In this document: positions 35,429-63,209 of the stretch, piece after piece | How the letters are laid out: the number at the start of each line of letters is the position of its first letter | Numbering within the stretch: position 1 is the first letter of the stretch | From: an uncultured Alphaproteobacteria bacterium | GTDB taxonomy: Bacteria > Pseudomonadota > Alphaproteobacteria > Methylaequorales > Methylaequoraceae | Assembly (NCBI GenBank): GCA_902536655.1 | Contig: CACAYF010000001.1 | Span: 39,627 to 103,626, forward strand | Direction: 5' to 3' | Length of the DNA: 64,000 nucleotides | The notes under the pieces: model-generated | The model's database searches: none | Told to the model about the DNA's origin: nothing | The model's input: the letters and a program-made list of their open reading frames with translations, nothing else | Position numbers and translations under genes: made by a program

Positions 35429-36065
35429 TATTAGAATTAAAATATTTATTTTTTGTTAGGATTTCATTGGCTTGAACCTGAATTTCTGTTATTTTTTCCT
35501 TTTCAATTAACTTTCCAACTCTATCCCTAAATTTCATGGCTTTATATATTCCTGAACTTACAGACACAGAATACCATAAATATGATTTTTCAAAATCAAT
35601 TTCTGGAGAAATTTTTTCATACCAATAACCTAATTGAAAAGCTGATATTGGGTTGTTATCGTTAACATACTCATTTTCAAGAATTATAGGGATAGTTTTA
35701 GAAATTTTTAAAAACTCATCTTCTTCAATTTTTTCTTCAATTGATTTTATTTTATTTAAACATTTTTTATTTCCGTTTAGTGAACAAAGCCAGGTATACT
35801 TTAGTGACTTACTAAAGTCTTGGGTGGTTCCGATACCCTCAAAATACATATTTGATAAATTAAAAATTGCATCTTTATTTCCTTTTTCAGAAAGATTAAA
35901 AAAAACAATAAAAGATTTTTTGAACTCTCCATTCTCATAAAAATTTACTCCACTTTTATAGTATTCCACATCATTCAAATATTTATTTTCAGATGTTGTT
36001 GTATCTGCGAAAGATAATTCTTTAACGAAAAAAAAGATTAAAAAAACTAAAAGAAACTGTTTCAC
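35409..36065 (-). CDS. Sel1/TPR-like repeat protein, secreted
   Basis: Signal peptide; Sel1-like AIFNLSNMYFEGIGTTQDFSKSLKY repeat. Confidence 0.45.
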   Translation of the reverse strand: MKQFLLVFLIFFFVKELSFADTTTSENKYLNDVEYYKSGVNFYENGEFKKSFIVFFNLSEKGNKDAIFNLSNMYFEGIGTTQDFSKSLKYTWLCSLNGNKKCLNKIKSIEEKIEEDEFLKISKTIPIILENEYVNDNNPISAFQLGYWYEKISPEIDFEKSYLWYSVSVSSGIYKAMKFRDRVGKLIEKEKITEIQVQANEILTKNKYFNSNNDEDDL

Positions 36066-36445
36066 CTTCCCGCCATCATTATTAATTGCAAATATAAAAC
36101 TCTTAATCTAAATTTGGAATTTGGTCTTTGTTCATAAACAACAATTCTTGGTCTATCAGAATTGGGTTTTTGAAATTCTATTGACATGTCCTCTGGAAGA
36201 TATACTCCATTAAATTCCAAAGTTTTTTGAGGATCTTGTTCAAACTCTTCTTTAAATTTAGAATCTATCCAAATCCTAGCTAGAACTCTCCCAAGTATAT
36301 CTGGAAGAAACTTTCTAACTTCAGATCTATTTTTGAAATGATGAAGTTTATTAGTTATATCAAGTGTTTTCGTTTTGTCTTGATTAACAGTTATAACTTC
36401 GTTTTTTTTTGTTTTAACTGGAAGATTTTGTTGTTTTTTTTTCAT
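36062..36445 (-). CDS. NHLP (nitrile-hydratase-leader-peptide)-like domain protein
   Basis: RVLARIWIDSKFKEEFEQDPQKTLEFNGVYLPEDMSI resembles the NHLP leader consensus (AKAWxDPxFKxxLLxDPxxxLxExGxxxPxGxEV); no Cys/Ser/Thr-rich core follows. Confidence 0.35.
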   Translation of the reverse strand: MKKKQQNLPVKTKKNEVITVNQDKTKTLDITNKLHHFKNRSEVRKFLPDILGRVLARIWIDSKFKEEFEQDPQKTLEFNGVYLPEDMSIEFQKPNSDRPRIVVYEQRPNSKFRLRVLYLQLIMMAGR

Positions 36446-36531: not shown

Positions 36532-36804
36532 ATGCATAGCACGAAGAACATTATTGAATTCCCAAATTTAATAAACCAAAAGAAAGAAAAAATGGTTGAA
36601 ATTAGAGATGAAATTGAAAAGATTTTAACAAACTACGCCATTAATGAGCAAGATTTATGGGCTGTTTCACTTGCTGCTGGAAGATTTGCTTCAATCCATC
36701 TTGAAAAGTTGGATGGTGAAAAGCAGACGATTAATTTTTTCAAAAATTGCATTGAAACGCAAAGAAAGTTTGAACTAACTAGAAATTCTTCCAACATTAC
36801 CTGA
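36532..36804 (+). CDS. hypothetical protein (90 aa)
   Basis: ORF only. Confidence 0.2.
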   Translation: MHSTKNIIEFPNLINQKKEKMVEIRDEIEKILTNYAINEQDLWAVSLAAGRFASIHLEKLDGEKQTINFFKNCIETQRKFELTRNSSNIT

Positions 36805-37092
36805 AATTTGAGCTCCAGTATCAACGGAAAGTGAATTTGTTTTTAATTTACCGTCAATTACACCACTGTTAGATACCTCTAAAAGGTCAGCTGTAATATC
36901 TCCATCAACTTTTCCCTCTACTTTTATGTGTTCTGCATTAATGTTTCCATTGAATAGTGCTGTGGGTTCAATAACCACTGATCTCGCAACAATATTACCT
37001 TTAAAATTTCCTGCTATAACAACTTGGCCTTCTTTCGACTCCAATTGTCCTTCCATAAGAAGATTTTTGTTAATGTAAGTTATATCACTCAT
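36775..37092 (-). CDS. Bactofilin (DUF583) paralog 3
   Basis: Beta-helical repeats VIAGNFKGNIVARSVVIEP...GKVDGDITAD...VIDGKLKT. Confidence 0.65.
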   Translation of the reverse strand: MSDITYINKNLLMEGQLESKEGQVVIAGNFKGNIVARSVVIEPTALFNGNINAEHIKVEGKVDGDITADLLEVSNSGVIDGKLKTNSLSVDTGAQISGNVGRISS

Positions 37093-37446
37093 TTAATCCT
37101 CAGCATGCTTATTATTTTTTAACTTATTTTCATCCCAGTTATGGATGATTTTACAGTTAAGTGCTGCACCTCTATCCATCTGAAGTGATTTGTAATTAAT
37201 TTCTCCAGTAATCACAGAAGAATCTGTTAGCCAAACAGAATCAGCTTTAATTTTACCTTGATAGTTTCCAGAAATTACAACTAATTCAGATATTATTGAC
37301 CCCTCAAGTGAAGCATATTTGCCAAGTGTTACCTTATCGGATTTAATATCTGCTTCTACTCTTCCATTAATTTCTATAGTTGATGCATTAGATATTTTAC
37401 CTTTAAATATCGCTCCTCTTCCTATGATTGATTGATTATCTGCCAT
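37093..37446 (-). CDS. Bactofilin paralog 2
   Basis: IIGRGAIFKGKISNASTIEINGRVEADIKSDKVTL... bactofilin repeats. Confidence 0.65.
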   Translation of the reverse strand: MADNQSIIGRGAIFKGKISNASTIEINGRVEADIKSDKVTLGKYASLEGSIISELVVISGNYQGKIKADSVWLTDSSVITGEINYKSLQMDRGAALNCKIIHNWDENKLKNNKHAED

Positions 37447-37448
37447 TA

Positions 37449-37871
37449 TTAAACACCTTTAGGTTTTTTTGATTGTTTCTTTCTTTTTTCTTTCTCTAAA
37501 CTTTTATCTTCGATTCTTTTATCTAACCCTCGGAAAAGCTGGACCTCTAAATTAGCACCGGGTCTTGCACTTAAACTGTTGTAATACATATTACCTTTTA
37601 TGTTTGCTGCAGATTCTATAGCCAATGATTCAGCAGTAACATCCCCCTCAAATTTACCTCCAATTATACATTCGAAAGCTTTTATATTACCTTTCTGATT
37701 TCCTTCAGCAGAAATATGAACATGTTCGCATTCTATATTACCTTTAACAATTCCTTTAAGCACTAACTTTCCACTGCATTTTATATTACCATTAATTTGC
37801 ATTTCGGTACCAATTACACTAGAGGAAGTCGATGCTTTTTTTTGAGTTTTATCTGGATTTCTAGAAAACAT
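37449..37871 (-). CDS. Bactofilin paralog 1 (Lys-rich C-terminal tail)
   Basis: VIGTEMQINGNIKCSGKLVLKGIVKGNIECEHVHI... bactofilin repeats. Confidence 0.65.
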   Translation of the reverse strand: MFSRNPDKTQKKASTSSSVIGTEMQINGNIKCSGKLVLKGIVKGNIECEHVHISAEGNQKGNIKAFECIIGGKFEGDVTAESLAIESAANIKGNMYYNSLSARPGANLEVQLFRGLDKRIEDKSLEKEKRKKQSKKPKGV

Positions 37872-37882
37872 ATTTCTACATT

Positions 37883-37899
37883 TGCAATAATTTTGCCAA
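37883..37899 (-). promoter_or_regulatory. Candidate sigma-54-like promoter upstream of the bactofilin triad
   Basis: Minus strand TGGCAAA-ATTA-TTGC. Very close to the annotated bactofilin start, so it fits better if translation begins at the internal Met (MQINGNIK, ~37802). Confidence 0.3.
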
Positions 37900-37970
37900 T
37901 TTATTCAATTTTAAGAACTTTAACCATTATCATAAAAAAAATTAAAAAAAAAGTTTTATTATTTAAATTT

Positions 37971-37986
37971 TGGCTTACTAAATGCA
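37971..37986 (+). promoter_or_regulatory. Candidate sigma-54-like promoter upstream of the tail-anchored protein / M23 peptidase / SLT operon
   Basis: TGGCTTA-CTAA-ATGCA (GG...GC spacing correct; -12 is aTGC instead of TTGC), ~45 nt upstream of the ATG at 38028. Confidence 0.3.
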
Positions 37987-38027
37987 TAAATTTACTTTTA
38001 ATAAATTTTATTGTAAGTTAATAAATT

Positions 38028-38570
38028 ATGAGTGAACCAGTAATTGACATTAGAGATAGAATAGAAAAGATGAGAAATCAGATGACTGTACCTGCCTCTA
38101 AAGTTTCTAGTTCAGAAACAAAAGTCGAAAGTAAAAAAGTTGAATCCGTACCAAGCGACAAAGCTGCAAACATTAATGTAGAAAACATAGAAAAAAAAAT
38201 AAGTAAAAACAACTTTGAAATAGCCGATAAAGAAAATATTAGATTTAAGAAAAACGAAAAATCAGCAGCTGATTATGAGGCACAAAAGCATAAACTAAAA
38301 AAAGATGAAGAACCCGATATTATTGAAAAAATAGAATTTGAAAAACAAAAGACTTTTGAAACTAAACAAAATTATAAGACCTATGACAGCTATCAAAATG
38401 ATAGAGTTGTTGATGATAAAAAACAATCAGTTAAGTTTGACGAAAAACAGCCATTTCCTCAGTTTAGCTTAAATGTTAGTAATCCTATTTCTTGGAAACT
38501 TATGTTGCTAATTATGTTAATGCAACTATTAACCAATATGATGTTGGTTGTTGTTCTATACTTGAAATGA
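38028..38570 (+). CDS. tail-anchored membrane protein with charged disordered N-terminal region, hypothetical
   Basis: K/E-rich low-complexity region; single C-terminal TM. Confidence 0.3.
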   Translation: MSEPVIDIRDRIEKMRNQMTVPASKVSSSETKVESKKVESVPSDKAANINVENIEKKISKNNFEIADKENIRFKKNEKSAADYEAQKHKLKKDEEPDIIEKIEFEKQKTFETKQNYKTYDSYQNDRVVDDKKQSVKFDEKQPFPQFSLNVSNPISWKLMLLIMLMQLLTNMMLVVVLYLK

Positions 38571-38574
38571 TTAA

Positions 38575-39954
38575 ATGGAAAATTTATCTAAAAAAATTTC
38601 CATGAATGTTTTCAAATTTAACATTTTGAAAAATCTAAAATCAAGTACAAGATTCGGCGAAACAAGTATTTTTTCCAGAAATTTAAGTGTATTTTCAAAA
38701 AATCTTAGACTTCTTCTCAAAGAAAGAAGATTTCTTTATTTTACAAAAAAAGGGCCTATAGAAGTTGTATTCAATATTAAACACTATTTGTCAGCTATCA
38801 CAATTTTTCTGGTTTTAATCTTCAAAGTTTTTCAACTTTTATTCTTTGGTGTTTCGTCTTTTTTTTCTTATATGGTTTACAAAAATACAGTTATAAATGA
38901 ACAGAGTTTTACAGAATCTGAAATAAAAACATTAAAAAGTATTGCAAAAGGTAAAAATATTTCAGAGCAAGAAATTAATTCTGAAAAAGCAGAAATAGTA
39001 ATTAAACAACAAGATGAATTTACAAAAACGAATAATTTTCAAAATGAATTACAAGATCAATTAAGAGAAAAATTATTAAATTTAAAAAGTATGATGCGAA
39101 ATATAAAGCTTAGCTTCCCAAATGACTTGAATTATTCAGATGAAATTAAATTTGAACAATTTTCAAAACTTGCAAGTCCTGAAATGGTTGCAATAGAACA
39201 TGCCTTTGAGAACAAGTTTGATCTAACAAAACCATCAAAAGACAAAAAAGAATCATTTGCATATAGGAAGCTCCCTGTTGTACCGTTTGTTGCTCCAAGA
39301 ACAAAAAAACTTAAAATAATTAATTTTACAAAGAAAATTGATACCGAAATTTTACAACTTTTAAGTGTTTTTGAACAATTGAAACTTCAACCAGACAAAC
39401 TTGATATTATCAGGATAAACGCCTTGCTTGCTGAAAATATAAATGTAGGCGAAGATAATGAGGATTTATTGGATCATACTTCGCTGAGGTTTCAAATTTT
39501 GCAAGATCTAAAAGATGCAATTATTTATGTACCTTTAAAACCACCTATGCAATATTACTACGTGTCTAGTCCTTATGGAATCAGAGTTCATCCTAAAAGC
39601 AAAAGAAAACAAATGCATCATGGAATTGATATGGCTGGCACTTGGCAAGAAGAGGTTAGGGCACCTGCTGATGGATATGTTTCTTTTTCGGGAAGAAATG
39701 GGTCTTTTGGTAAAACTATTAAAATAGTTCATAAACATGGTGTGTCAACATTGTATGGACATCTTCATCGATTAAATGTGAAAAAAGGGATGAATGTCAC
39801 AGAGGGAGAAGTAATTGGAAAAATGGGATCAACAGGAAGAGCTGTTGGTGCGCATCTTCATTATGAAATAAAAGTTAGTGGTAAATCAGTAAATCCATAC
39901 GATTTCATTTCAGTGGGACGTGATCTGCTAAGCAGTTCAATAATTAAAAAATAA
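38575..39954 (+). CDS. M23 (LytM) family peptidoglycan endopeptidase, membrane anchored
   Basis: HHGIDMA...YGHLHR...GSTGRAVGAHLHYEI (HxxxD / HxH M23 motifs); N-terminal TM. Confidence 0.7.
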   Translation: MENLSKKISMNVFKFNILKNLKSSTRFGETSIFSRNLSVFSKNLRLLLKERRFLYFTKKGPIEVVFNIKHYLSAITIFLVLIFKVFQLLFFGVSSFFSYMVYKNTVINEQSFTESEIKTLKSIAKGKNISEQEINSEKAEIVIKQQDEFTKTNNFQNELQDQLREKLLNLKSMMRNIKLSFPNDLNYSDEIKFEQFSKLASPEMVAIEHAFENKFDLTKPSKDKKESFAYRKLPVVPFVAPRTKKLKIINFTKKIDTEILQLLSVFEQLKLQPDKLDIIRINALLAENINVGEDNEDLLDHTSLRFQILQDLKDAIIYVPLKPPMQYYYVSSPYGIRVHPKSKRKQMHHGIDMAGTWQEEVRAPADGYVSFSGRNGSFGKTIKIVHKHGVSTLYGHLHRLNVKKGMNVTEGEVIGKMGSTGRAVGAHLHYEIKVSGKSVNPYDFISVGRDLLSSSIIKK

Positions 39955-39990
39955 ATTAAAGTTTGGCACTTAAATTGCTGATTAAAATGC

Positions 39991-40611
39991 ATGAGATTAT
40001 TTTTAGCCGTTTTATTATGCTTTTTAATATTTACATTACTTGAATCAAAAGAACTTGAATCAAAAGAATTAGATAATTGTAACTATTTAACTGAAAAGTA
40101 CGGAAAAATTTATAATCTTCCCAATAAACTATTAACTTCTATTGCACTTGTTGAGTCAGGGATCAAAAAGAACGAATTTAAGTCATGGCCATGGACACTA
40201 AATGTTTCCGGAAAATCAATGTATTTTGATAATAAATTAGAAACCTTAGAATATTTAAAAAGTAATATAAGCTCTAAAAAAAGTATCGACGTCGGTTGCA
40301 TGCAAATTAACACAAGATACCACTTAAAAAATTTTAAAGATTTGTCTCATTTAGTCGAGCCTGAAGAAAACGTGAAGTACGCTGCAATTTATCTTCGTAA
40401 ACTTTTTAAAAAATATAAATCGTGGAACGAAGCAGTTTCAAGATATCATTCATCAATTCCAAAACGAAAGAAAAATTATCTTAAAAAAGTTCGTACATAT
40501 TGGAATGATTTAAGACAACAGAAAATAGTTATAGATAATAATTATATCAGCCATGATGAGGCAGAAAAAATAAAATTTTTTAGAGAAATACTAAAAAAAG
40601 AAAATACTTAA
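39991..40611 (+). CDS. Lytic transglycosylase, SLT-domain (secreted)
   Basis: Signal peptide; IALVESG...DVGCMQIN SLT catalytic Glu and motif II. Confidence 0.5.
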   Translation: MRLFLAVLLCFLIFTLLESKELESKELDNCNYLTEKYGKIYNLPNKLLTSIALVESGIKKNEFKSWPWTLNVSGKSMYFDNKLETLEYLKSNISSKKSIDVGCMQINTRYHLKNFKDLSHLVEPEENVKYAAIYLRKLFKKYKSWNEAVSRYHSSIPKRKKNYLKKVRTYWNDLRQQKIVIDNNYISHDEAEKIKFFREILKKENT

Positions 40612-40615: not shown

Positions 40616-40828
40616 TTGGCAAAGTATTTGCACACATATTTTATGAAGGAGAAAAAAATGAATAAATATATATGTTCACGCGATATTAAAGATAATATTA
40701 TTAATTCTAACCCAGTTATTAAAATTACTCATTTTGAAAATGATAAAAGTGTTAAAACTGATGTTTACCCAATTTCACATTTCTTGGATAAATCTTCTAG
40801 AGAAATTAAAACGATAGTATATTCCTAA
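40616..40828 (+). CDS. hypothetical protein (70 aa)
   Basis: ORF only. Confidence 0.2.
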   Translation: MAKYLHTYFMKEKKMNKYICSRDIKDNIINSNPVIKITHFENDKSVKTDVYPISHFLDKSSREIKTIVYS

Positions 40829-40933: not shown

Positions 40934-42394
40934 CTACATATTCATACTTTGAATTTTCATAATTTTTCTTCTAACTGAGGAGGCTGGTATATTTAGTAAC
41001 TCCCTGTATTTTGCTACAGTTCTTCTAGCTAAATCAATTCCTTCATCTTGAAGTTTCTCTACTAACATTTCGTCACTCAATGGACTGTTAACTGGTTCAC
41101 TACTAATCAATTTTTTTAGAGATTCTCTCACTGATTCTGCTGAATGAGTTTCACCTTTCTTAGTACTACTTATGGAGGCACTAAAAAATAGTTTCATTTC
41201 AAAAACACCCCTTGGTGTTAGCATTAATTTATCTGATGTAACTCTACTGACTGTGCTTTCATGCATATTTATTTTTTTTGCTACATCTTTAAGAACCATT
41301 GGTTTAAGATATTTTTTTCCCTTTTCAAAAAATTCCTTTTGTTGGTTAACAATTTCTGAACTAATTTTAAGCGTTGTTACATTTCTCTGTTGAATTGCTT
41401 TAAGTAACCATCTTGCAGAATTTAAAGATTCATTAATAAACTTTTTATCTGATTCTCCACAATTAAGTCTTCCTATTTCTTTCACGTAGTCTTCATTAAT
41501 ATTAATTTTTGGAAGTGTGCTATTATTTAATTCCACCGCCCAATCAGAATTATTTTTTGTTACAATTACATCTGGATGAAAAATATTGTCATTATCCATC
41601 GAATATTTGCTACCAGGTTTTGGGTTTAGAGATCTTATAAGCCTAATTTCTTCTTTGAGTTTTTCTTCTTTTAATCCTGTAAGTTTTTGAAGACCTTTAA
41701 TATTTCCACTTCCAAGTAAATCAATATTATCAATAAGAATCTCTTTTTTTGAATCAAAGTTGTTTTCGTTTATTAGTTGAATTTTTAGGCACTCTTTCAA
41801 ATTTCTAGCAAACACCCCATTAGGCTCAAAAAATTGCATTCGTTCTAGAACTTTTTCAATTTTGTTTAATTTAAATCCACTAAACTCTTCAATAGTTTCC
41901 AATTTTTCTGTGATCCAACCATTTTCGTCAATATAGTCAATTAATATTGTTGCAATATTCTTATCTTCATCATCCTTGAATTCAAGATCCGCTTGATTAT
42001 TCAAAATGGACTTTAAAGAAATTTTGTTGCTAAGTGTTTGTTCTATTACACTTCCAACGTCAACACTTTCTTTTGACGTATGCTTTCTATTAAATTCAAA
42101 AGTTGCATCGTTATCCCACCTATTTTCAAAATCATCGTTACGAGGTTCATCTGCAATTGATTCACCATTTTTGAAAGATTCGTCTAATTCATCAGTTTTT
42201 TCCATGTTTTGATTGTCTTGATTCTCTAGTACTTCGCTCTCATTTTCCAAAAATGGATTCTCTTCTATCTCTTTGTTCACTAGATTTGTTAATTCTAAAT
42301 TATTTAACTGAAGCAATTTAATTGCTTGTTGTAACTGAGGAGTCATAACTAAAGATTGACTCTGTTTTAATTTAAGATTCTGTGAAATTTGCAT
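40934..42394 (-). CDS. rpoN: RNA polymerase sigma-54 factor
   Basis: N-terminal LKQSQSLVMTPQLQQAIKLLQLNNLEL; C-terminal RpoN box ARRTVAKYRE. Confidence 0.85.
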   Translation of the reverse strand: MQISQNLKLKQSQSLVMTPQLQQAIKLLQLNNLELTNLVNKEIEENPFLENESEVLENQDNQNMEKTDELDESFKNGESIADEPRNDDFENRWDNDATFEFNRKHTSKESVDVGSVIEQTLSNKISLKSILNNQADLEFKDDEDKNIATILIDYIDENGWITEKLETIEEFSGFKLNKIEKVLERMQFFEPNGVFARNLKECLKIQLINENNFDSKKEILIDNIDLLGSGNIKGLQKLTGLKEEKLKEEIRLIRSLNPKPGSKYSMDNDNIFHPDVIVTKNNSDWAVELNNSTLPKININEDYVKEIGRLNCGESDKKFINESLNSARWLLKAIQQRNVTTLKISSEIVNQQKEFFEKGKKYLKPMVLKDVAKKINMHESTVSRVTSDKLMLTPRGVFEMKLFFSASISSTKKGETHSAESVRESLKKLISSEPVNSPLSDEMLVEKLQDEGIDLARRTVAKYRELLNIPASSVRRKIMKIQSMNM

Positions 42395-43161: not shown

Positions 43162-43358
43162 AAAACTGCAGAATATGTTCTTTCATAAGATATTTTTTAG
43201 CTTTTGTTCTGTTATTGATTATTATTTCGCTGACTTTTAAAGACAATCTAAGTTATCTTTCGTTTGTTACACCATGGAATGCAGCAATATTAATATTTGG
43301 TGTAGGTTGTGGTCTATTTTTATTTAAATTAATTGAGTATTTAAATCAGAAAGATTAA
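43158..43358 (+). CDS. small membrane protein (66 aa)
   Basis: Two hydrophobic segments. Confidence 0.2.
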   Translation: MKNCRICSFIRYFLAFVLLLIIISLTFKDNLSYLSFVTPWNAAILIFGVGCGLFLFKLIEYLNQKD

Positions 43359-43855
43359 CGATCTCTTACGAATCTTACAAATAATTCCTTCTCAGGTACA
43401 AACCTTCCGTAAGAATGTCCTGTAAAGAAGTTTACTGACCAAAAAAACTTAGGTGACCACCAATTTCTTTGAGAAGTCCAGAAAGGTTCAGCCGGTGTGT
43501 TAGGAAAAAAAGTTTTGTCTATCTTTGCTCCCTCGCAATTTTTACAAATTAAGCTTTCTAGCTCTTTTCTAGAGGGCAACCTCCACTCACCTTCAATTTG
43601 CTCATTAAGTAAATTATTAGCCTCTTCTGCAGATTTTAAATCCAATTTAACAGCAGCTCCAAGACATTCTTGTTTGTTGTCGCTCCATTGTTGACCTGTT
43701 GTACATTTTAGCCACTCAAGTTTATTTTTTAAATCTATAACGTAATACCCTTTGTCTATGAAGTTAGATGCAAAGACATTATTATTAAAAAATAGTAGGA
43801 AAAAACATATAAAAAGTTGCTTTTTAATCATATCTGTATAATACAATAAATACAT
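43355..43855 (-). CDS. DUF1566 (Lcl C-terminal domain)-like secreted protein
   Basis: Signal peptide; W...C...EWRLPSRKELESL pattern of DUF1566. Confidence 0.4.
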   Translation of the reverse strand: MYLLYYTDMIKKQLFICFFLLFFNNNVFASNFIDKGYYVIDLKNKLEWLKCTTGQQWSDNKQECLGAAVKLDLKSAEEANNLLNEQIEGEWRLPSRKELESLICKNCEGAKIDKTFFPNTPAEPFWTSQRNWWSPKFFWSVNFFTGHSYGRFVPEKELFVRFVRDR

Positions 43856-43880: not shown

Positions 43881-43896
43881 TGGTATTAAAGTTGCA
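43881..43896 (+). promoter_or_regulatory. Candidate sigma-54 (-24/-12) promoter upstream of motA
   Basis: TGGTAT-N5-TTGCA with GG and GC at consensus spacing, ~50 nt upstream of the motA ATG; G/C dinucleotides are rare in this AT-rich intergenic region. Confidence 0.4.
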
Positions 43897-43946
43897 GAAT
43901 TAACACCAAAATATTAATTATATATTAGATGTAAATGGAAAAATAA

Positions 43947-44720
43947 ATGGATTTAGCTACAATAATTGGTTTTCTTGGTACAATTGGCATGATTGCTGGC
44001 GCAATGATTTCAGCTGGAGGTTTGGGCTCATACATTGATGTCCCTTCAATTTTAATAGTTTTTGGTGGTTCTTTTTTTGCTGTAATGTATACAGCACCTT
44101 TACCAGTTTATCTTGGTTCTTTCGGAGCTTTTGGTAAAGCTTTTAAACCACCTGTAAAAAAAATGGACGAACTTATTGAAAGAATAGTAGAGCTAGCAGG
44201 TATTGCAAGAAAAGATGGGATGATGGCATTAGAAGGACAAGAAACTCCAGATCCATTTTTTGACAACGGTCTTCAAATGCTAGTAGACGGAGCAGATGAG
44301 TCAAAACTTACTGTACAATTAAAAAAAGAACTTAAGGCAATGCAAGGTCGACATGAAAAAAATATTGGGTGTGCCCAATCTTGGGTAGATATAGCACCTG
44401 CAATGGGAATGATTGGAACTTTGGTTGGATTGGTTGCGATGCTTGGTAATATGGCAGATCCTAAAGCAATTGGTCCTGCAATGGCTGTTGCTCTTTTGAC
44501 TACACTTTACGGGGCTATGATAGCAAATACTATTTTTATGCCCATAGTAATAAAATTAAAAGGCTATTCAGCCTACGAAACAACTTACAGAGAAATGATT
44601 ATTACAGGATTACAATTTATTTCCAGAGGAGAGAGCCCAAGAAATATTCAGGATCAACTTGTTGCGAATCTTCCACCTAAAGAAAAGCAAAAACTTCTGG
44701 AAGCTGCAGCTGGAGGTTAA
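43947..44720 (+). CDS. motA: Flagellar motor stator protein MotA/PomA
   Basis: 4TM MotA/TolQ/ExbB family; 257 aa. Confidence 0.8.
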   Translation: MDLATIIGFLGTIGMIAGAMISAGGLGSYIDVPSILIVFGGSFFAVMYTAPLPVYLGSFGAFGKAFKPPVKKMDELIERIVELAGIARKDGMMALEGQETPDPFFDNGLQMLVDGADESKLTVQLKKELKAMQGRHEKNIGCAQSWVDIAPAMGMIGTLVGLVAMLGNMADPKAIGPAMAVALLTTLYGAMIANTIFMPIVIKLKGYSAYETTYREMIITGLQFISRGESPRNIQDQLVANLPPKEKQKLLEAAAGG

Positions 44721-44730
44721 AGTTTGAATC

Positions 44731-45915
44731 ATGGCTGAGGAAAAAACTGAAAATCAACAGACATCAAATGAAGAGGAGGAACATGAATGTCCCGAATGTC
44801 CTCCAAAAGGAGCGCCTGCTTGGATGGCAACTTTTGCTGACATGGCAACACTGTTGATGGCTTTTTTTGTTTTAATCCTATCTTTCGCAGAATTTAATGT
44901 CCCAAAATTTAAACAAATAAGTGGAAGTATGAAGAATGCTTTTGGGATACAAAGAGTTATTCCAGTTGTTGAACCACCTAAAGGAACAACAATATTATCT
45001 TTAAATTTCAGTCCGAACCCGACTCCCGCGGTTCAAGAAAATTTAAAACAACAAACAACAGAGACTGATCAACCTAAAGTAGAACTTCAAACTAAGAAAG
45101 AAGATAATACTAAGGATGATGGTGAAACTGAGGACGCAAAAGAACTTGCCAAAAATATTCAAGAAGCTATTGCAAGAGGTGATATAACCGTCGAAGCATT
45201 GGGGAGTAAAGTTGTTGTTAACTTTACACCAACAGAAGCTGACGAGAAAGAACTACCTCAACTACTTCAAGAGACTTTAAATGCTGTGGAATCTGTAAAG
45301 GCTGCATCGGGAAAATCAGATTCTGAAATTTTAATTGGTGGCTTAGAAAAGCAGCTGGCTGATCTTGCAACTGCATCTTCTCAAAAAGGTAAAAATGAGG
45401 CTGAAGGTGAAGATGGAGAAAGTGTAGGTCAATCTGAACAAAGCCAATCAGCTAAGGAGGAGGCTAAAAAAGCAGAGCTGGCTGAGGACAAATTAAAAAT
45501 TGCACTAAAACAAGAAATTGGGGAAGGCCTTGTAAATGTTGATAGAGAAGACGATAAAGTGATAATAACTGTTGGGTCTGCTGGTGCGTTCAAGTCAGGA
45601 TCTGCTGAACTTACTAATAAGGCAAGAGAGATAATGTCTAAAATAGCAGAACAAAATAAAAAAGGTAGAAGTGAGATATTGGTGATGGGTCATACGGACA
45701 ACGTGCCACTTACATTTGGGTCAAATTATAGAGACAATTGGGATCTCGCAGCAGCAAGATCTGCCTCAGTGGTTCAACAATTATCAAGAAATGATATTCT
45801 CGACCCAAAAAGAATGAAGGCCATAAGTTACGGAGAGACAAGACCAGTAGAGTCAAATGATACCACTCAGGGAAGAGCCAAAAATAGAAGAATTGAAATC
45901 GAGATAAATTATTAA
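44731..45915 (+). CDS. motB: Flagellar motor stator protein MotB (OmpA-like C-terminus; long E/K-rich linker)
   Basis: TM with conserved Asp (WMATFADMATLLMAFFVL); C-terminal OmpA motif ILVMGHTDNVP...NWDLAAARSASVVQ...NRRIEI. Confidence 0.8.
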   Translation: MAEEKTENQQTSNEEEEHECPECPPKGAPAWMATFADMATLLMAFFVLILSFAEFNVPKFKQISGSMKNAFGIQRVIPVVEPPKGTTILSLNFSPNPTPAVQENLKQQTTETDQPKVELQTKKEDNTKDDGETEDAKELAKNIQEAIARGDITVEALGSKVVVNFTPTEADEKELPQLLQETLNAVESVKAASGKSDSEILIGGLEKQLADLATASSQKGKNEAEGEDGESVGQSEQSQSAKEEAKKAELAEDKLKIALKQEIGEGLVNVDREDDKVIITVGSAGAFKSGSAELTNKAREIMSKIAEQNKKGRSEILVMGHTDNVPLTFGSNYRDNWDLAAARSASVVQQLSRNDILDPKRMKAISYGETRPVESNDTTQGRAKNRRIEIEINY

Positions 45916-46840: not shown

Positions 46841-47440
46841 TCACTCGTATTCAAGTTCTTCGTTTTTATATTTTTCAAAATATTCGTTACCCAGAATTTC
46901 CTTTATCTTTTCAATTGTAAGATCGTTGATTTTAGAGGAGTATAACTCGTGCATTTCAGAACATTTTCTGGAAACCGCGTTTGCAACCCCTTGAGATATA
47001 AAATCATTTTCAAGTGCTGTTCTTGCTCTTGTAGTTGCCTCAGATTTAGCCTTTGTGAGTCTAGCTAAACCTGAATTTTTTTTTCTATTTAAATCGTCGA
47101 CAACTTCCATTAGTTGTTTGTAGCTGGGTTCTGGTAGGTCAATGTTAATGAATTGTCCATCAACTTCGTAATTAAACTCTACTTCATCAACTTTTTCAGT
47201 TAAAAGGGGTATGTGATCTGTATTAAAAACTAAGATTTGTACTACATTTTCATTTTCTGTTTTCTTTATATCTCCTACATCAACTAACCTTCTTGGCTTA
47301 CCTTGGATGTTGATACGTATACCTTTAAGTGTACTTAAGTTTGCATCTGCTGATTTTACTTCTTGAATTACTTCTGTATAATCCTCGATTGCTGCTTTCA
47401 TTAAAGTTTCTGCTTGTATTGTATATTTATCTGCAACCAT
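46841..47440 (-). CDS. hypothetical soluble protein (199 aa)
   Basis: ORF; co-directional and tightly packed with the genes downstream of flhB. Confidence 0.3.
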   Translation of the reverse strand: MVADKYTIQAETLMKAAIEDYTEVIQEVKSADANLSTLKGIRINIQGKPRRLVDVGDIKKTENENVVQILVFNTDHIPLLTEKVDEVEFNYEVDGQFINIDLPEPSYKQLMEVVDDLNRKKNSGLARLTKAKSEATTRARTALENDFISQGVANAVSRKCSEMHELYSSKINDLTIEKIKEILGNEYFEKYKNEELEYE

Positions 47441-48983: not shown

Positions 48984-49180
48984 GCAATTCTTCCTTTATT
49001 AAATATTTTAACACTTTTTTGTTTTTTTTGAAATAGTGCACAATCTGTGCCAGAAACTTTCTTTATTTCTAAATATGGATTATTTTTTGAAATTACACCA
49101 AATGCTTTACAACCATATGGAAAGTTTTTCTTATAGGTCACATAAAAATGCGCGCAGTTATTACAATTATTTTGGTTCAT
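48980..49180 (-). CDS. small Cys4 zinc-ribbon-like protein (66 aa)
   Basis: C-x2-C ... C ... C arrangement. Confidence 0.25.
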   Translation of the reverse strand: MNQNNCNNCAHFYVTYKKNFPYGCKAFGVISKNNPYLEIKKVSGTDCALFQKKQKSVKIFNKGRIA

Positions 49181-49409
49181 TTTTCGTTAGATCTCTTATT
49201 TTATAATATAGTTTTGCAATTTGGAACCTCAACGCACCACAAAAAGAAGTAAAAGCACAAAACCAAAGAAATAAAGCAAGCAAAAAATTTTTTTCTTCGA
49301 ACACTTCAATGGCCTTAAAGTGGCATATTAATGAGCTGTAAAAAAAAGCAAGAGTAACTATTAGTTGTGAAATATTTCTATTGATCATTTTTTCTTCCAA
49401 ACTCGTCAA
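49167..49409 (-). CDS. small two-TM membrane protein (80 aa)
   Basis: Immediately downstream of flhB, overlapping it. Confidence 0.2.
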   Translation of the reverse strand: MTSLEEKMINRNISQLIVTLAFFYSSLICHFKAIEVFEEKNFLLALFLWFCAFTSFCGALRFQIAKLYYKIRDLTKNEPK

Positions 49410-50529: not shown

Positions 50530-50543
50530 TAAATTATATCCTT

Positions 50544-51625: not shown

Positions 51626-51651
51626 TACCGATTACTCCTAAAACACTAAAT

Positions 51652-52711: not shown

Positions 52712-52744
52712 TTTCCCCTCTTGATTAGTTTATACAAGAGAGAT

Positions 52745-53240: not shown

Positions 53241-53251
53241 AATTTTTCTCC

Positions 53252-62051: not shown

Positions 62052-63209
62052 TTAAGCTTGCATCAATTTTTTTTCTGATAAATTTTCTTGAATATTATTA
62101 TAAAAATTACTTTGTTTTGATACATCTATCATTATATCTTTAGCCTCAATAATATTTTTTTCACAAAGAACTATGGCTCGCTGTAGGACATTTTCTAACT
62201 CTCTAACATTTCCAGGCCAACCATACTCTTTTAATATTTTTTGAGCATCTTTATTGATGTAAGGCAAGGAGCTATTTTCTGTGTGTCTATTCAACAGAGC
62301 AATACTTATTGGTAAAATATCATCAGGTCTTTCAGATAAATTATGTGTTTCTATTGGGAATACATTTAGTCTGTAATATAAATCCTCTCTGAATTTTTTT
62401 TCTCTTACTTCGTCTAACATATCTCTGTTCGTAGTTGCAATTACTCTTACATTGACATCAATATCCCTTTGTCCGCCAATCGGTGTAACTTTTTTTTCTT
62501 GGAGAACTCTCAGAAGTTTGGCTTGGAGGGACAACGGCATTTCAGATACTTCATCAAGGAGTAATGTGCCATTATCCGCAGCTCGAAAAATTCCTTTATT
62601 GGCAGAAGAAGCTCCTGTAAAAGCTCCTTTTTCATGTCCAAATAACATTGCTTCAAGCATATTTTCTGGTATTGCAGCACAATTTATCGCAATAAAAGGT
62701 TTTTCATGTCTATCCGACTTTTTATGAATTAGGTTGGAAATAACTTCTTTTCCAGTTCCGGTCGGTCCATGAATGAATACTGTAACATCAGTTTTTGAAA
62801 CTTTTTCAACCATGTTAATTAAAGAAAGTGTTTTCTTATCAGAGAAACTGTACTTTTCCTTAGATATAATTTGGAAAATGATTTCTTTTATAACTTCATC
62901 CATAATTTTGTAAGAAATTTGAATATAAGCTCCGCCCATTTCTTTTTTTAAATCATAATTACCATCACTTGTTGAATCCAAAACTATTAATTTTGTGGAA
63001 CCTATATTTCTAGCTATTTTAAGGATATTTGATTGACCACCTTGTTTGTTTTCGAATTTTTTATCAATAATCAGTGTGGATTGAGAGCTCTTAATTTCAC
63101 TTATTTCATCGGAAACAATTAACTTTATTTCCTTTCTTTTTTTACTAAAAAAATCACTTACTTCATTGTATACTTCAAAACAATCTTTAATAATAAATAT
63201 TTCCTTCAT
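62052..63209 (-). CDS. Sigma-54-dependent activator (AAA+ with GAFTGA), degenerate receiver-like N-terminus, no C-terminal HTH (FleT/FlbD/FlgR-like)
   Basis: Walker [30 protein letters not shown] and GNVRELEN, then ends ~45 aa later. The tracked TTG start at 63236 is probably superseded by the ATG at 63209 (MKEIFIIKD), preceded by AAGGA. Confidence 0.7.
   Translation of the reverse strand: MKEIFIIKDCFEVYNEVSDFFSKKRKEIKLIVSDEISEIKSSQSTLIIDKKFENKQGGQSNILKIARNIGSTKLIVLDSTSDGNYDLKKEMGGAYIQISYKIMDEVIKEIIFQIISKEKYSFSDKKTLSLINMVEKVSKTDVTVFIHGPTGTGKEVISNLIHKKSDRHEKPFIAINCAAIPENMLEAMLFGHEKGAFTGASSANKGIFRAADNGTLLLDEVSEMPLSLQAKLLRVLQEKKVTPIGGQRDIDVNVRVIATTNRDMLDEVREKKFREDLYYRLNVFPIETHNLSERPDDILPISIALLNRHTENSSLPYINKDAQKILKEYGWPGNVRELENVLQRAIVLCEKNIIEAKDIMIDVSKQSNFYNNIQENLSEKKLMQA

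What the first reader, a model, noticed from the sequence alone, without database searches (positions are those of the whole stretch)
36775..40611. Three tandem bactofilin paralogs divergent from a tail-anchored protein / M23 endopeptidase / SLT lytic transglycosylase unit, possibly a sigma-54-wired cell-shape module beside the flagellar genes
Seen in sequence: three consecutive bactofilin (DUF583 beta-helix) genes sit on the minus strand. Divergent from them are a K/E-rich tail-anchored membrane protein, a membrane-anchored LytM/M23 peptidase (HxxxD...HxH) and an SLT-domain transglycosylase. Both divergent units have GG-N10-GC sigma-54-like elements in the shared 156-bp AT-rich spacer (37883-37899 on minus, 37971-37986 on plus). 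rpoN itself lies 1 kb away and the motAB/fli genes follow.

Established knowledge: in Helicobacter, the bactofilin CcmA and the M23 peptidases Csd1/Csd2 are co-encoded and generate helical or curved shape. Bactofilin triads (BacNOP) exist in Myxococcus.

Inference: a peptidoglycan-sculpting module made of a bactofilin scaffold plus hydrolases, transcriptionally linked to flagellar sigma-54 control. The tail-anchored protein is a candidate adaptor. That combination and wiring has not, to my knowledge, been described.
Basis: partly seen in the sequence, partly recalled or inferred. Interest (0 to 1): 0.65.

Follow-up and report, generated by a model that had tools for sequence, protein, structure and literature searches.

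The report
Sigma-54-wired bactofilin and cell-wall hydrolase module
An uncultured marine alphaproteobacterium carries a deeply conserved gene cluster of three cytoskeletal bactofilins facing a membrane adaptor and a cell-wall-cutting enzyme, and this known type of cell-shaping module appears to be switched on by the same sigma-54 promoters as the flagellar genes beside it.

Summary
Three bactofilin genes (36775-37871, minus strand) diverge from an operon of a tail-anchored protein plus a bitopic M23 endopeptidase with an intact zinc site. An SLT lytic transglycosylase follows.

These resemble the boxes in front of motAB and the flagellar operons in the same window.

- The boxes before the adaptor/M23 operon, SLT and the small ORF are present in every orthologous locus examined (28/28, 31/31, 31/31).
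- The bactofilin box is present in only 14/28.
- The cluster bacABC / adaptor-M23 / rpoN / motAB persists in four much more distant lineages (RpoN 39-46% identical, GC 29-54%). One of these is a MAG labelled Puniceispirillales.
- SLT is only sporadically linked to the cluster.

The M23 protein has the LmdC architecture: a predicted cytoplasmic beta-hairpin, a transmembrane helix, helical regions and a C-terminal M23 domain. The core is therefore a variant of the published bactofilin-LmdC morphogenetic module, not a new kind of system.

What is new: the conserved tail-anchored partner, the three-paralogue set, the sigma-54 wiring and flagellar linkage, and the predicted leaderless transcripts. 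All regulation and function are inferred from sequence only.

The parts
36532..36804 (+). Small conserved cytoplasmic ORF (90 aa, 'hyp90'), convergent with and overlapping the 3' end of bacC. Candidate accessory protein of the module.
   Evidence: No Pfam hit. Orthologues at the same position in the window clade and in L041, L043 and L044, and elsewhere in the locus in L042 (35-52% identity). It carries an IRDEIE helix motif resembling the N-terminus of the tail-anchored protein.
36775..37092 (-). bacC, bactofilin paralogue (105 aa). No N-terminal membrane-targeting peptide.
   Evidence: PF04519 E 8e-23. One-to-one orthologues in all lineages.
37093..37446 (-). bacB, bactofilin paralogue (117 aa) with an acidic C-terminal tail. 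The most conserved protein of the module.
   Evidence: PF04519 E 6e-21. It stays 91-99% identical in most window-clade loci and 73-77% in the four most divergent (L022-L024, L026). 56-61% identical in the distant lineages.
37449..37871 (-). bacA, bactofilin paralogue (140 aa) with N-terminal MFSR(N/D), a membrane-targeting-type peptide, and a lysine-rich C-terminal tail. First gene of the bacABC operon.
   Evidence: PF04519 E 3e-21. The MFS[RK] start is conserved in 28 loci. Published MTS consensus MFSKKKK and Caulobacter BacA MFSKQAKS (PMC12448750). The peptide is absent from BacA of L041-L044.
37883..37898 (-). Sigma-54 -24/-12 box for bacABC (TGGCAAAATTATTGCA). The ATG lies 13 nt after the C of the GC element, which predicts a leaderless mRNA.
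   Evidence: One mismatch to TGGCAC-N5-TTGCW. Present in 14 of 28 orthologous spacers, with a fixed offset in 12 of them. A minus-strand box also faces bacA in L041, L042 and L044.
37920..37953 (.). Conserved upstream element (TTAACCATTATCAT-A8-TT-A9-G; ATGMTTATCAY plus A-tracts in relatives), about 17 nt upstream of the plus-strand box. Candidate enhancer or intrinsic bend.
   Evidence: Near-invariant columns in the alignment of 28 distinct spacers. Function untested.
37971..37986 (+). Sigma-54 -24/-12 box for the tail-anchored protein/M23 operon (TGGCTTACTAAATGCA).
   Evidence: TTGGC and TGCAT are invariant in 28 of 28 distinct spacers while the flanks diverge. An equivalent plus-strand box is present in L041 and L044.
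38028..38570 (+). TA180: tail-anchored membrane protein. It has a conserved N-terminal helix motif (M-S/A-E-x-V/I-I-D-I-R-D/E-R-I-E-x-M-R), a variable K/E/N/S-rich linker, and a conserved FPQFSLNVSNP motif plus C-terminal TM helix. Candidate adaptor.
   Evidence: Hydropathy. Alignments. No Pfam or NCBIfam family. 474 homologues, all without Pfam domains; those listed come from marine metagenomes and genomes. Always immediately upstream of the M23 gene, with a 4-nt gap here and an overlap in L042.
38575..39954 (+). LmdC-type bitopic M23 DD-endopeptidase (459 aa): cytoplasmic tail with predicted beta-hairpin (residues 51-66; invariant E50 R51 R52 L54 T57 G60 P61 E63 F66), TM helix, helical periplasmic region, and C-terminal M23 domain with an intact Zn site.
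   Evidence: Pfam. Invariant H348, D352, H427 and H429. AlphaFold2 model with mean pLDDT 68, M23 domain above 90, hairpin 60-74. Foldseek top hits are active M23 endopeptidases: NMB0315, Csd3, Csd1/2 and ShyA.
39964..39979 (+). Sigma-54 box for SLT (TGGCACTTAAATTGCT; perfect consensus match), 10 nt after the M23 stop codon. The ATG lies 13 nt after the GC, which predicts a leaderless mRNA.
   Evidence: Present in 31 of 31 loci. The ATG is 12-14 nt after the GC in 29 of 31 loci while the intervening bases vary.
39991..40611 (+). Secreted SLT-domain lytic transglycosylase (206 aa) with an N-terminal signal-like hydrophobic segment. Catalytic E55 (VESG), WPWTLN and DVGCMQ motifs.
   Evidence: PF01464 E 4e-11. 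Partial NCBIfam hits to IagB and VirB1. Invariant motifs in the alignment. Hydropathy of residues 1-22.
40617..40632 (+). Sigma-54 box (TGGCAAAGTATTTGCA) for the small ORF downstream of SLT.
   Evidence: Present in 31 of 31 loci. Also follows the M23 gene in L041 and L044, which lack SLT.
40658..40828 (+). Small conserved ORF (56 aa from the ATG preceded by an AAGGAG Shine-Dalgarno; an in-frame ATG at 40643 is an alternative start). Function unknown.
   Evidence: Conserved Shine-Dalgarno plus ATG 24-33 nt after the box in all loci. Orthologue alignment. No Pfam hit.
40934..42394 (-). rpoN (sigma-54), convergent with the SLT/small-ORF units.
   Evidence: Three RpoN Pfam domains. Linked to the module in all five lineages.
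43881..43907 (.). Back-to-back sigma-54 boxes sharing the central TGCA. The plus-strand box (TGGTATTAAAGTTGCA) precedes motAB. The minus-strand box (TGGTGTTAATTCTGC) precedes the Lcl_C-domain gene at 43355-43855.
   Evidence: The plus box is present in 25 of 25 loci and the minus box in 18 of 25. A motA box is present in L041-L044.
43947..45915 (+). motA-motB stator genes, the conserved right-hand neighbours of the module.
   Evidence: Translations. MotA_ExbB, MotB_plug and OmpA Pfam annotations of the orthologues. 67-100% identity across loci.
62052..63209 (-). Sigma-54 enhancer-binding protein without a C-terminal HTH. First gene of an operon with fliEFGHIJ, and preceded by its own sigma-54 box (63243-63258). 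Candidate activator of the boxes above.
   Evidence: Sigma54_activat E 3e-69 and AAA lid to within 17 residues of the C-terminus. Box and corrected start codon.

Best explanation
**What it is (shown from sequence).** The region is a conserved cytoskeleton and cell-wall module of an uncultured, AT-rich marine alphaproteobacterial lineage. It has relatives up to a MAG labelled Ca. Puniceispirillales. One arm is the bacA-bacB-bacC operon of three orthologously conserved bactofilin paralogues. The divergent arm is an operon of a tail-anchored protein (TA180) and a catalytically intact, bitopic M23 endopeptidase of the LmdC type.

**How it most likely works (inferred by analogy with BacA-LmdC of Hyphomonas and Rhodospirillum).**
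- The bactofilins co-polymerise on the cytoplasmic face of the membrane. In this clade BacA contributes an MFSR membrane-targeting peptide.
- The polymer captures the M23 enzyme through its cytoplasmic beta-hairpin. TA180, which has a conserved N-terminal helix and a near-invariant TM helix, acts as a second membrane tether or adaptor.
- Peptidoglycan cross-links are therefore cut only at the site marked by the polymer. This produces local curvature or pole remodelling.

**Regulation (inferred from conserved -24/-12 boxes).**
- The TA180-M23 operon, the SLT gene, a small ORF and, in about half of the close relatives, bacABC are transcribed by sigma-54 holoenzyme.
- The same holds for motAB and the fli operons in the window.
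- The activator is probably the flagellar enhancer-binding protein encoded upstream of fliE. It lacks a DNA-binding domain, so it could act from solution. That would fit boxes placed 6-10 nt after the preceding stop codon.
- The module would thus be made together with the flagellar basal body and stators.

**SLT.** SLT is most likely the dedicated rod-penetration lytic transglycosylase (SltF/IagB-like) of the flagellum. It has been co-opted into the neighbourhood and is not a core partner.
For: - Domain identities and intact active sites.
- LmdC-like architecture: one TM segment. AF2 hairpin at 51-57/60-66 followed by a TM helix at 68-109 and then helical regions and the M23 domain. The hairpin residues E50 R51 R52 L54 T57 G60 P61 E63 F66 are invariant even in homologues only 31-35% identical overall. 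The LmdC hairpin is the BacA-binding element (PMC10945521).
- BacA MFSR against the published MTS consensus.
- Synteny: bacCBA / TA / M23 is kept in the window plus all 27 close loci that contain it, and in L041-L044, although the left flanks differ and RpoN is only 39-46% identical.
- Sigma-54 boxes: enrichment. All boxes lie in the correct orientation in front of genes. Conservation is 28/28, 31/31 and 31/31, as invariant islands. The fixed 12-14-nt spacing between the GC element and the ATG of SLT in 29 of 31 loci, despite variable intervening sequence, is hard to explain unless transcription starts there.
- rpoN and an activator without an HTH are in the window.
- Precedent for sigma-54 control of motAB, for a fleT-fliEFGHIJ operon, and for a Sec-exported flagellar SLT enzyme in R. 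sphaeroides: PMC7277832.
Against: - There are no transcript, binding or phenotype data. All regulation is inferred from motifs.
- BLASTP finds no similarity between the H. neptunium LmdC 1-38 peptide and the N-terminus here.
- The non-catalytic 330 residues have only 57 hits in 1.84 billion representatives. Membership of the LmdC clade therefore rests on architecture and a medium-confidence model (hairpin pLDDT 60-74).
- The M23 gene is not immediately adjacent to or co-operonic with a bactofilin gene, unlike lmdC-bacA.
- The bacABC box is missing in 14 of 28 close loci. Both boxes are missing in L043.
- The MFSR peptide is absent from BacA in the distant lineages.
- The cell shape of these organisms is unknown.
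- Other enhancer-binding proteins may exist elsewhere in the genome.
Confidence: 0.6

Rival explanations
1. **Flagellum-dedicated apparatus.** The three bactofilins, TA180, the M23 enzyme and SLT are accessory parts of the flagellar machine rather than shape determinants. The bactofilin patch would mark or stabilise the flagellar pole or export gate, as BacE/BacF are needed for hook and filament assembly in B. subtilis. The two hydrolases would open and widen the peptidoglycan for the rod and stator ring.
For: - Linkage bac3 / TA-M23 / rpoN / Lcl_C / motAB is conserved in five lineages while the other flank changes. fliL lies next to the module in L043.
- The promoter type is the same as for motAB and the fli operons.
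- SLT resembles secretion-apparatus lytic transglycosylases.
- B. subtilis bactofilins are required for flagellar hook and filament assembly (PMC4627819).
Against: - To my knowledge, no M23 endopeptidase or bactofilin is known as a flagellar component in Proteobacteria (from memory; the searches turned up none).
- LmdC-type enzymes studied so far act in growth and curvature (PMC10945521).
- The bacABC sigma-54 box is absent in half of the close relatives, and the module lacks boxes in L043 although motA keeps its box.
- The B. subtilis motility phenotype is strain-dependent (PMC9103452, title and abstract seen).
Confidence: 0.25
2. **Sigma-54-dependent but not flagellar.** The boxes are real sigma-54 promoters, but they are served by a different enhancer-binding protein (for example an envelope-stress or nutrient-responsive one). 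That protein would bind the conserved ATGMTTATCAY/A-tract element. On this reading, co-location with flagellar genes is historical.
For: - A conserved upstream element specific to the bacA-TA180 spacer (37920-37953) is nearly invariant in 28 spacers. It was not seen upstream of the other boxes inspected.
- Only 64 kb of the genome was visible, so other activators cannot be excluded.
Against: - The SLT and small-ORF boxes lie 6-10 nt after the preceding stop codon, with no intergenic room for an enhancer.
- The only activator in the window lacks an HTH and heads the fliE operon.
- Every other well-placed box in the window precedes a motility gene or operon.
Confidence: 0.1
3. **Neighbours by descent only.** The bactofilins, hydrolases and rpoN/mot genes are adjacent because streamlined genomes keep gene order. 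The GG/GC motifs are conserved for another reason, such as a binding site of another factor or translation signals.
For: - The whole 15-kb stretch from PEP carboxylase to motB is collinear in all 30 close loci, so synteny within the clade is uninformative on its own.
- GG-N10-GC alone is common: 123 hits in the window.
Against: - The core order survives in lineages whose flanks and GC content (29-54%) differ.
- The full TGGC-N8-TGC motif is six-fold enriched. It sits at a fixed distance from start codons. It is the only invariant block in the spacers besides the A-tract element.
- TA180 and the M23 gene are translationally close-coupled in all lineages.
Confidence: 0.05

Closest known systems
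BacA-LmdC bactofilin/M23 endopeptidase module of Hyphomonas neptunium and Rhodospirillum rubrum (Pöhl et al. 2024, eLife, PMC10945521)
   Same: - A bactofilin scaffold genetically linked to a bitopic M23 endopeptidase.
- The enzyme has a short cytoplasmic tail containing a beta-hairpin directly before the TM helix, a helical periplasmic region, and a catalytically intact C-terminal M23 domain.
- It occurs in an alphaproteobacterial setting.
   Different: - Here there are three bactofilin paralogues instead of one in the operon.
- The genes are divergent rather than overlapping in one operon.
- A conserved tail-anchored protein is inserted between promoter and M23 gene, so the locus would escape a search for immediately adjacent pairs.
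- Sigma-54-type promoters are present, together with conserved linkage to rpoN and motAB.
- The non-catalytic sequence is not detectably similar to LmdC by BLASTP.
Helicobacter pylori csd1-csd2-ccmA (and Campylobacter Pgp3/Pgp6) cell-shape loci
   Same: - M23 peptidases are co-encoded with a bactofilin.
- The M23 domain here gives its best NCBIfam partial hits to Pgp6 and Pgp3. Its structural hits include Csd1/2/3.
   Different: - The Csd1/Csd2 chains matched here are short (159-182 residues).
- There is only one bactofilin in those loci.
- From memory: Csd1/Csd2 lack the hairpin/coiled-coil architecture, no sigma-54 promoter is reported for csd/ccmA, and membrane partners such as Csd5 and Csd7 appear unrelated to TA180. 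None of these three points was tested here.
Myxococcus xanthus BacN-BacO-BacP tandem bactofilins
   Same: Three tandem bactofilin paralogues that presumably co-polymerise.
   Different: - BacNOP scaffold the ParABS/PadC chromosome segregation system (PMC5703909, seen).
- No hydrolase partner, no sigma-54 and no flagellar context are known there.
- No ParA or PadC genes are seen here.
Rhodobacter sphaeroides Fla1 hierarchy (FleQ/FleT, sigma-54) and the flagellar lytic transglycosylase SltF (PMC7277832)
   Same: - A sigma-54 activator gene heads a fliEFGHIJ operon.
- motAB are under sigma-54 control.
- A Sec-exported single-domain SLT enzyme is expressed with flagellar genes.
   Different: - sltF lies inside the flgG operon and binds FlgJ. 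Here SLT stands alone behind the M23 gene with its own promoter.
- Its partnership with FlgJ is untested.
- No bactofilin or M23 genes are known in the Fla1 regulon.
Bacillus subtilis BacE/BacF (PMC4627819)
   Same: Tandem bactofilins functionally tied to flagellar assembly.
   Different: - Gram-positive host in a yhbDEF operon with a DUF4004 regulator.
- No hydrolase partner and no sigma-54.

Membership tests
Bactofilin (PF04519) | Bactofilin beta-helical domain covering most of the protein | tested here: met
   All three ORFs match positions 1-96/97 of the 98-position profile at E 6e-21 to 8e-23, well above the 27.9-bit cutoff.
Bactofilin (PF04519) | N-terminal membrane-targeting peptide (consensus MFSKKKK) | tested here: met
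   BacA starts with MFSRNPDK, and MFS[RK] is conserved in 28 loci (consensus from PMC12448750). BacB, BacC and the BacA orthologues of L041-L044 lack it.
LmdC-type M23 endopeptidase | M23 domain with all Zn-binding and catalytic residues (HxxxD, HxH) | tested here: met
   H348, D352, H427 and H429 (plus H396) are invariant in 11 and in 20 homologues. The AF2 M23 domain has pLDDT above 90 and matches active M23 structures.
LmdC-type M23 endopeptidase | Bitopic topology: short cytoplasmic N-terminus, one TM helix, periplasmic helical/coiled-coil region | tested here: met
   A single hydrophobic segment at residues 64-98. AF2 places a helix at 68-109, followed by helices at 114-124, 155-175, 244-268 and 295-316. 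Coiled-coil propensity was not scored separately.
LmdC-type M23 endopeptidase | Conserved cytoplasmic beta-hairpin that binds BacA | tested here: inconclusive
   AF2 predicts strands at 51-57 and 60-66 directly before the TM helix in two independent runs (pLDDT 41-51 and then 60-74). Residues E50 R51 R52 L54 T57 G60 P61 E63 F66 are invariant in distant homologues. By eye the segment resembles ERQIYHRSGG of H. neptunium LmdC, but BLASTP finds no alignment. Binding itself is not testable here.
LmdC-type M23 endopeptidase | Gene immediately adjacent to, or in an operon with, a bactofilin gene | tested here: not met
   The M23 gene is divergent from bacA and separated from it by the spacer and the TA180 gene. 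The linkage is nevertheless kept in every locus examined.
LmdC-type M23 endopeptidase | Placement in the LmdC clade of an M23 phylogeny (Figueroa-Cuilan et al. 2021) | not tested
   Reference LmdC sequences could not be retrieved with the tools. The N-terminal 330 residues find only lineage-restricted homologues (57 hits).
Sigma-54-dependent promoter | GG and GC doublets 10 nt apart within a TGGCAC-N5-TTGCW context | tested here: met
   Mismatches to the consensus: 39964 has 0; 37883 and 40617 have 1 each; 43881 has 2. 37971 has 3 by my own count; it falls outside the 2-mismatch scan. Enrichment over shuffles.
Sigma-54-dependent promoter | Correct position and orientation upstream of a gene, and conservation in orthologous regions | tested here: met
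   TA180 box 28/28, SLT box 31/31, small-ORF box 31/31, motA box 25/25, bacA box 14/28. The spacing between the GC element and the ATG is fixed.
Sigma-54-dependent promoter | rpoN and an AAA+ enhancer-binding protein encoded in the genome | tested here: met
   rpoN at 40934-42394. Activator at 62052-63209.
Sigma-54-dependent promoter | Transcription start 12-13 nt downstream of the GC element, dependent on rpoN and an activator | not testable with these tools
   Requires 5'-end mapping or mutants.
SltF-like flagellar lytic transglycosylase | Sec signal plus a single SLT domain with catalytic Glu | tested here: met
   Hydrophobic residues 1-22. PF01464. Invariant E55, WPW-x-x-N and GCMQ motifs.
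SltF-like flagellar lytic transglycosylase | Encoded within a flagellar (flgG) operon and binds a single-domain FlgJ | tested here: not met
   The gene is not in a flg operon. It stands alone behind the M23 gene with its own sigma-54 box. FlgJ is not in the window, and the interaction is not testable.

The most novel reading that the evidence does not exclude
In this abundant uncultured marine lineage the bactofilin cytoskeleton is a genuine member of the flagellar sigma-54 regulon. A three-paralogue bactofilin patch, tethered by a previously undescribed tail-anchored adaptor and a hyp90-type small protein sharing its IRDxIE motif, positions an M23 endopeptidase and a lytic transglycosylase at the flagellar pole. 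Cell-wall remodelling (pole shape or curvature) and motor assembly would then be built as one developmental unit, partly from leaderless sigma-54 transcripts.
Probability: 0.3. Interest if true: 0.7.

Novelty: new variant of a known kind. Interest (0 to 1): 0.5.

Why it matters
**Mechanism.** Bactofilin-M23 modules are an emerging general solution for making curved, stalked or helical bacteria, but how they are regulated and tethered is poorly known. This locus offers three things:
- a naturally conserved variant with an extra, unannotated membrane adaptor family and three co-evolving bactofilins;
- sequence evidence, conserved across many genomes, that the hydrolase arm is under sigma-54 control together with flagellar stator and export genes, which would couple shape and motility transcriptionally;
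- a clean case of predicted leaderless sigma-54 transcripts.

**Ecology.** It occurs in very abundant ocean bacterioplankton, with hundreds of Tara and GORG hits. Nothing was found here about the morphology or motility programme of these organisms.

**Annotation.** Searches for bactofilin-M23 pairs that require immediate adjacency will miss such loci.

Tried and rejected
1. **Direct homology of the M23 N-terminus to LmdC.** BLASTP against the published LmdC 1-38 peptide gave no alignment. A phmmer search of residues 1-330 against 1.84 billion representatives gave only 57 hits. Most are short fragments 41-95% identical to the query, consistent with the same lineage. Clade membership could therefore not be shown by sequence.
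2. **First AF2 run.** With 11 close homologues the model was too poor (pLDDT 48). A second run with 20 sequences, including distant ones, was usable.
3. **AFDB fold search.** It was unavailable. The PDB Foldseek search only recovered generic M23 domains.
4. **PDB sequence search with SLT.** It gave nothing meaningful.
5. **Searches with TA180 and BacB.** The listed hits (best 120 of 474 and of 861) were all close relatives, down to 46% and 88% identity. No named cultured organism was recovered.
6. **Taxonomic placement.** Literature searches for AEGEAN-169/HIMB59 or SAR116 flagella and shape returned nothing usable. I do not assign the window to a named order.
7. **Sigma-70 promoter and terminator scans.** They were uninformative in this AT-rich DNA: 40 found against 43.9 expected, and no terminators.
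8. **Rfam.** No RNA family was found in the window.
9. **The TGGC-N8-TGC hit at 22351.** It lies inside an aminotransferase (egtE-like) gene and is regarded as chance. The hits at 57613 and 61311 lie antisense inside fliI and fliF.
10. **A CtrA box reading of TTAACCAT in the spacer.** Rejected, because that octamer is not conserved in relatives.

Full report
**1. What is in the sequence**

- Three consecutive minus-strand ORFs are full-length bactofilin domains: 36775-37092, 37093-37446 and 37449-37871 (E 8e-23 to 3e-21).
- Divergent from them is a 180-aa protein (38028-38570) with no Pfam or NCBIfam match.
- It is followed by a 459-aa protein with a C-terminal Peptidase_M23 domain (38575-39954) and a 206-aa SLT-domain protein (39991-40611).
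- rpoN (40934-42394, minus strand) follows. Then come an Lcl_C-domain gene, motA-motB (43947-45915), and a fliE-to-flhB cluster headed by a sigma-54 activator (49378-63209).

The 180-aa protein is 25.6% Lys+Glu. Its only hydrophobic stretch is the last 25 residues, so 'tail-anchored' is correct.

The M23 protein has one TM-like segment at about residues 64-98. Its metal and catalytic residues H348-x3-D352 and H427-x-H429 are invariant in alignments of 11 and of 20 homologues.

SLT has an N-terminal signal-like segment and an invariant catalytic Glu55 in a VESG motif.

**2. The sigma-54 elements are real motifs, and there are more of them**

Both reported elements are present:
- TGGCAAAATTATTGCA at 37883-37898 (minus strand);
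- TGGCTTACTAAATGCA at 37971-37986 (plus strand).

Two were missed:
- a perfect consensus TGGCACTTAAATTGCT at 39964-39979, 10 nt after the M23 stop codon and directly before SLT;
- TGGCAAAGTATTTGCA at 40617-40632, in front of a small ORF.

The motif is enriched. TGGC-N8-TGC occurs 10 times in the window against 1.69 expected; 0 of 100 shuffles reach 10. The fuller consensus with up to 2 mismatches occurs 35 times against 16.5 expected.

The remaining well-placed copies precede the activator-fliE operon (63243-63258), fliK (56237-56252) and an operon of unknown genes (49037-49052). With TGGT instead of TGGC, one precedes motAB (43881-43896). Copies at 22351, 57613 and 61311 lie inside genes and look like chance.

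SLT is therefore its own unit. The 'tail-anchored / M23 / SLT unit' of the finding is really two or three transcription units.

**3. Conservation**

A genome-collection scan with an M23 alignment retrieved 30 orthologous loci. They come from uncultured marine single-cell genomes and MAGs, variously labelled Alphaproteobacteria, Rickettsiales or Pelagibacteraceae. M23 identity ranges from 51 to 94%. All are collinear from PEP carboxylase to motB.

Within this clade:
- The plus-strand box before TA180 is present in 28 of 28 spacers. In an alignment of 28 distinct spacers, the only invariant blocks are TTGGC and TGCAT. An upstream ATGMTTATCAY/A-tract element is nearly invariant.
- The SLT box and the small-ORF box are present in 31 of 31 loci.
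- The motA box is present in 25 of 25 loci.
- The minus-strand box before bacA is present in only 14 of 28.

Four much more distant loci were obtained through weak N-terminal hits. They are L041 (a GORG single-cell genome), L042 (a metagenome contig, GC 54%), L043 (GC 33%) and L044 (a MAG labelled Ca. Puniceispirillales).
- RpoN is only 39-46% identical to the window protein, and the left flanks differ.
- All four nevertheless keep the order: small hyp90-like ORF / bacC-bacB-bacA / tail-anchored protein-M23 / ... / rpoN / Lcl_C / motA-motB.
- The three bactofilins are one-to-one orthologues.
- The tail-anchored protein keeps its N-terminal M-A-E-x-I-I-D-I-R-E-R-I-E-x-M-R motif and its FPxxSLxVxNP-TM end.

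SLT is different. It is absent from L041, L043 and L044. In L042 it is relocated downstream of bacC.

Sigma-54 boxes in the bacA/TA spacer of the distant loci are variable:
- L041 and L044 have two back-to-back boxes sharing the central TGCA.
- L042 has only the box facing bacA.
- L043 has none.
- motA keeps its box in all four.

**4. What the M23 protein is**

Its architecture matches that published for LmdC: a cytoplasmic tail, a TM helix, a helical periplasmic region and an active C-terminal M23 domain. LmdC is the bitopic M23 endopeptidase recruited by the bactofilin BacA in Hyphomonas neptunium and Rhodospirillum rubrum through a cytoplasmic beta-hairpin (PMC10945521).

Two AlphaFold2 runs place a beta-hairpin at residues 51-57/60-66, immediately before the TM helix at 68-109. 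The second run has mean pLDDT 68, with the hairpin at 60-74 and the M23 domain above 90. The hairpin residues E50 R51 R52 L54 T57 G60 P61 E63 F66 are invariant even in homologues only 31-35% identical overall.

The caveats are these:
- BLASTP finds no similarity to the LmdC 1-38 peptide.
- The non-catalytic part has only lineage-restricted homologues.
- The gene is not directly adjacent to a bactofilin gene.

I therefore call it LmdC-like in design. Clade membership is untested.

BacA of this clade begins with MFSR(N/D). This matches the bactofilin membrane-targeting consensus MFSKKKK.

**5. What SLT is**

SLT has its own universally conserved promoter and only sporadic linkage to the module. 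It has a Sec-type signal. Its best, sub-threshold family similarities are to the secretion-apparatus lytic transglycosylases IagB and VirB1. In R. sphaeroides a Sec-exported single-domain SLT enzyme, SltF, is the flagellar rod-penetration enzyme; sigma-54 controls the fleT-fliEFGHIJ operon, and motAB are sigma-54-dependent class III genes (PMC7277832).

I therefore regard SLT as most likely the flagellum's dedicated lytic transglycosylase. It fails the 'encoded in a flg operon' criterion, and FlgJ is outside the window.

**6. How it most likely works**

Shown: gene content, active-site integrity, conserved linkage and conserved promoter-like boxes.

Inferred:
- The bactofilins polymerise at the membrane and capture the M23 enzyme through its hairpin. 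TA180 acts as an additional tether.
- Cross-link cleavage is thereby confined to one site, giving curvature or pole remodelling.
- The hydrolase arm (and in part of the lineage also bacABC), SLT and the small ORF are transcribed by sigma-54 holoenzyme together with motAB and the fli operons.

The only activator in the window ends 17 residues after its AAA lid and has no HTH. From memory, H. pylori FlgR likewise lacks a DNA-binding domain; the R. sphaeroides review text did not mention one for FleT. An activator acting from solution would fit boxes placed right behind stop codons.

The main rival (about 0.25) is that the whole set is a flagellar accessory. It is supported by the deep linkage to rpoN and motAB and by the B. 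subtilis BacE/BacF precedent (PMC4627819). It is weakened by the labile bacABC box and the absence of any known flagellar role for M23 enzymes in Proteobacteria.

**7. Extra observations bearing on promoter reality**

The SLT start codon lies 12-14 nt after the C of the -12 GC element in 29 of 31 loci (13 nt in 23 of them). The intervening bases vary freely. bacA shows the same 13-nt geometry in 12 loci. This places the ATG at the predicted start site and predicts leaderless mRNAs. It is difficult to explain unless the boxes are working promoters.

The small ORF instead keeps an AAGGAG Shine-Dalgarno and an ATG 24-33 nt after its box.

**8. Novelty and verdict**

The bactofilin-M23 pairing is known, so the claim that the combination is undescribed is too strong.

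To my knowledge the following are new:
- the conserved tail-anchored partner family and the hyp90 family;
- the three-paralogue set tied to an LmdC-like enzyme;
- the sigma-54 wiring and the conserved linkage to rpoN and motAB.

A full-text search for bactofilin with sigma-54 returned only two unrelated papers.

I classify the locus as a new variant of a known kind, of moderate interest (0.5). No experiment supports regulation or function. The lineage is uncultured and its cell shape is unknown.

Noticed in passing
window 39964-39993 and 37869-37898; L001-L030 equivalents: The ATG of SLT lies 12-14 nt after the C of the -12 GC element in 29 of 31 loci, although the intervening bases vary. bacA shows the same 13-nt geometry in 12 loci. 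This predicts leaderless sigma-54-dependent mRNAs, which I have not seen described.
   Followed up: partly
window 43881-43907; L041 7563-7590; L044 around 7060-7090: Two sigma-54 boxes on opposite strands share the palindromic TGCA of the -12 element (TGG-N9-TGCA-N9-CCA). This forms a compact bidirectional promoter between motA and the Lcl_C-domain gene (plus box in 25/25 loci, minus box in 18/25). In L041 and L044 the same design lies between bacA and the tail-anchored gene.
   Followed up: partly
window 38028-38075 and 36532-36804: The N-terminus of TA180 (VIDIRDRIEKMR) and the small convergent ORF hyp90 (VEIRDEIEKIL) share an IRDxIE helix motif. Both motifs are conserved in four to five divergent lineages, which may point to a common binding partner.
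   Followed up: partly
window 37920-37953: A near-invariant element (ATGMTTATCAY followed by A8-TT-A9-G) lies about 17 nt upstream of the TA180 sigma-54 box in 28 spacers. A long A-tract also lies upstream of the activator-fliE box. It could be an enhancer or an intrinsic bend; its function is unknown.
   Followed up: partly
window 62052-63209 (minus strand): The sigma-54 activator heading the fliE operon has no C-terminal HTH and an N-terminal domain with no Response_reg hit. Its real start is the ATG at 63209, with an AAGGA Shine-Dalgarno 35 nt after its own sigma-54 box, not the TTG at 63236.
   Followed up: partly
window 40643-40828: A small ORF (56-61 aa) with its own universally conserved sigma-54 box and a strong Shine-Dalgarno has no family match. 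It is retained after the M23 gene even in lineages that lack SLT (L041, L044).
   Followed up: partly
window 46841-47440 (minus strand); L044 13795-14595: A weak ribosome-recycling-factor domain protein (PF01765, 46 bits) is the last gene of a three-gene operon behind the sigma-54 box at 49037-49052. The other two genes are of unknown function. An RRF-domain gene also follows motB in L044.
   Followed up: no
window 36062-36445 (minus strand): A 127-aa protein conserved throughout the window clade gives a sub-threshold hit to the NHLP leader peptide RiPP precursor family (TIGR03793, 30 bits against a cutoff of 50.9). It overlaps the start of a Sel1-repeat gene.
   Followed up: no
window 20026-23392: An ergothioneine-type gene trio: FGE-sulfatase/DinB (EgtB-like), a histidine-specific methyltransferase (EgtD-like) and a class-V aminotransferase (EgtE-like). 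The TGGC-N8-TGC hit at 22351 lies inside the last of these and is probably chance.
   Followed up: no
window 43355-43855 (minus strand): A secreted Lcl C-terminal domain (PF07603) protein is divergently paired with motA in all five lineages. In most close loci it has its own sigma-54 box. It may be an unrecognised motility-associated envelope protein.
   Followed up: no
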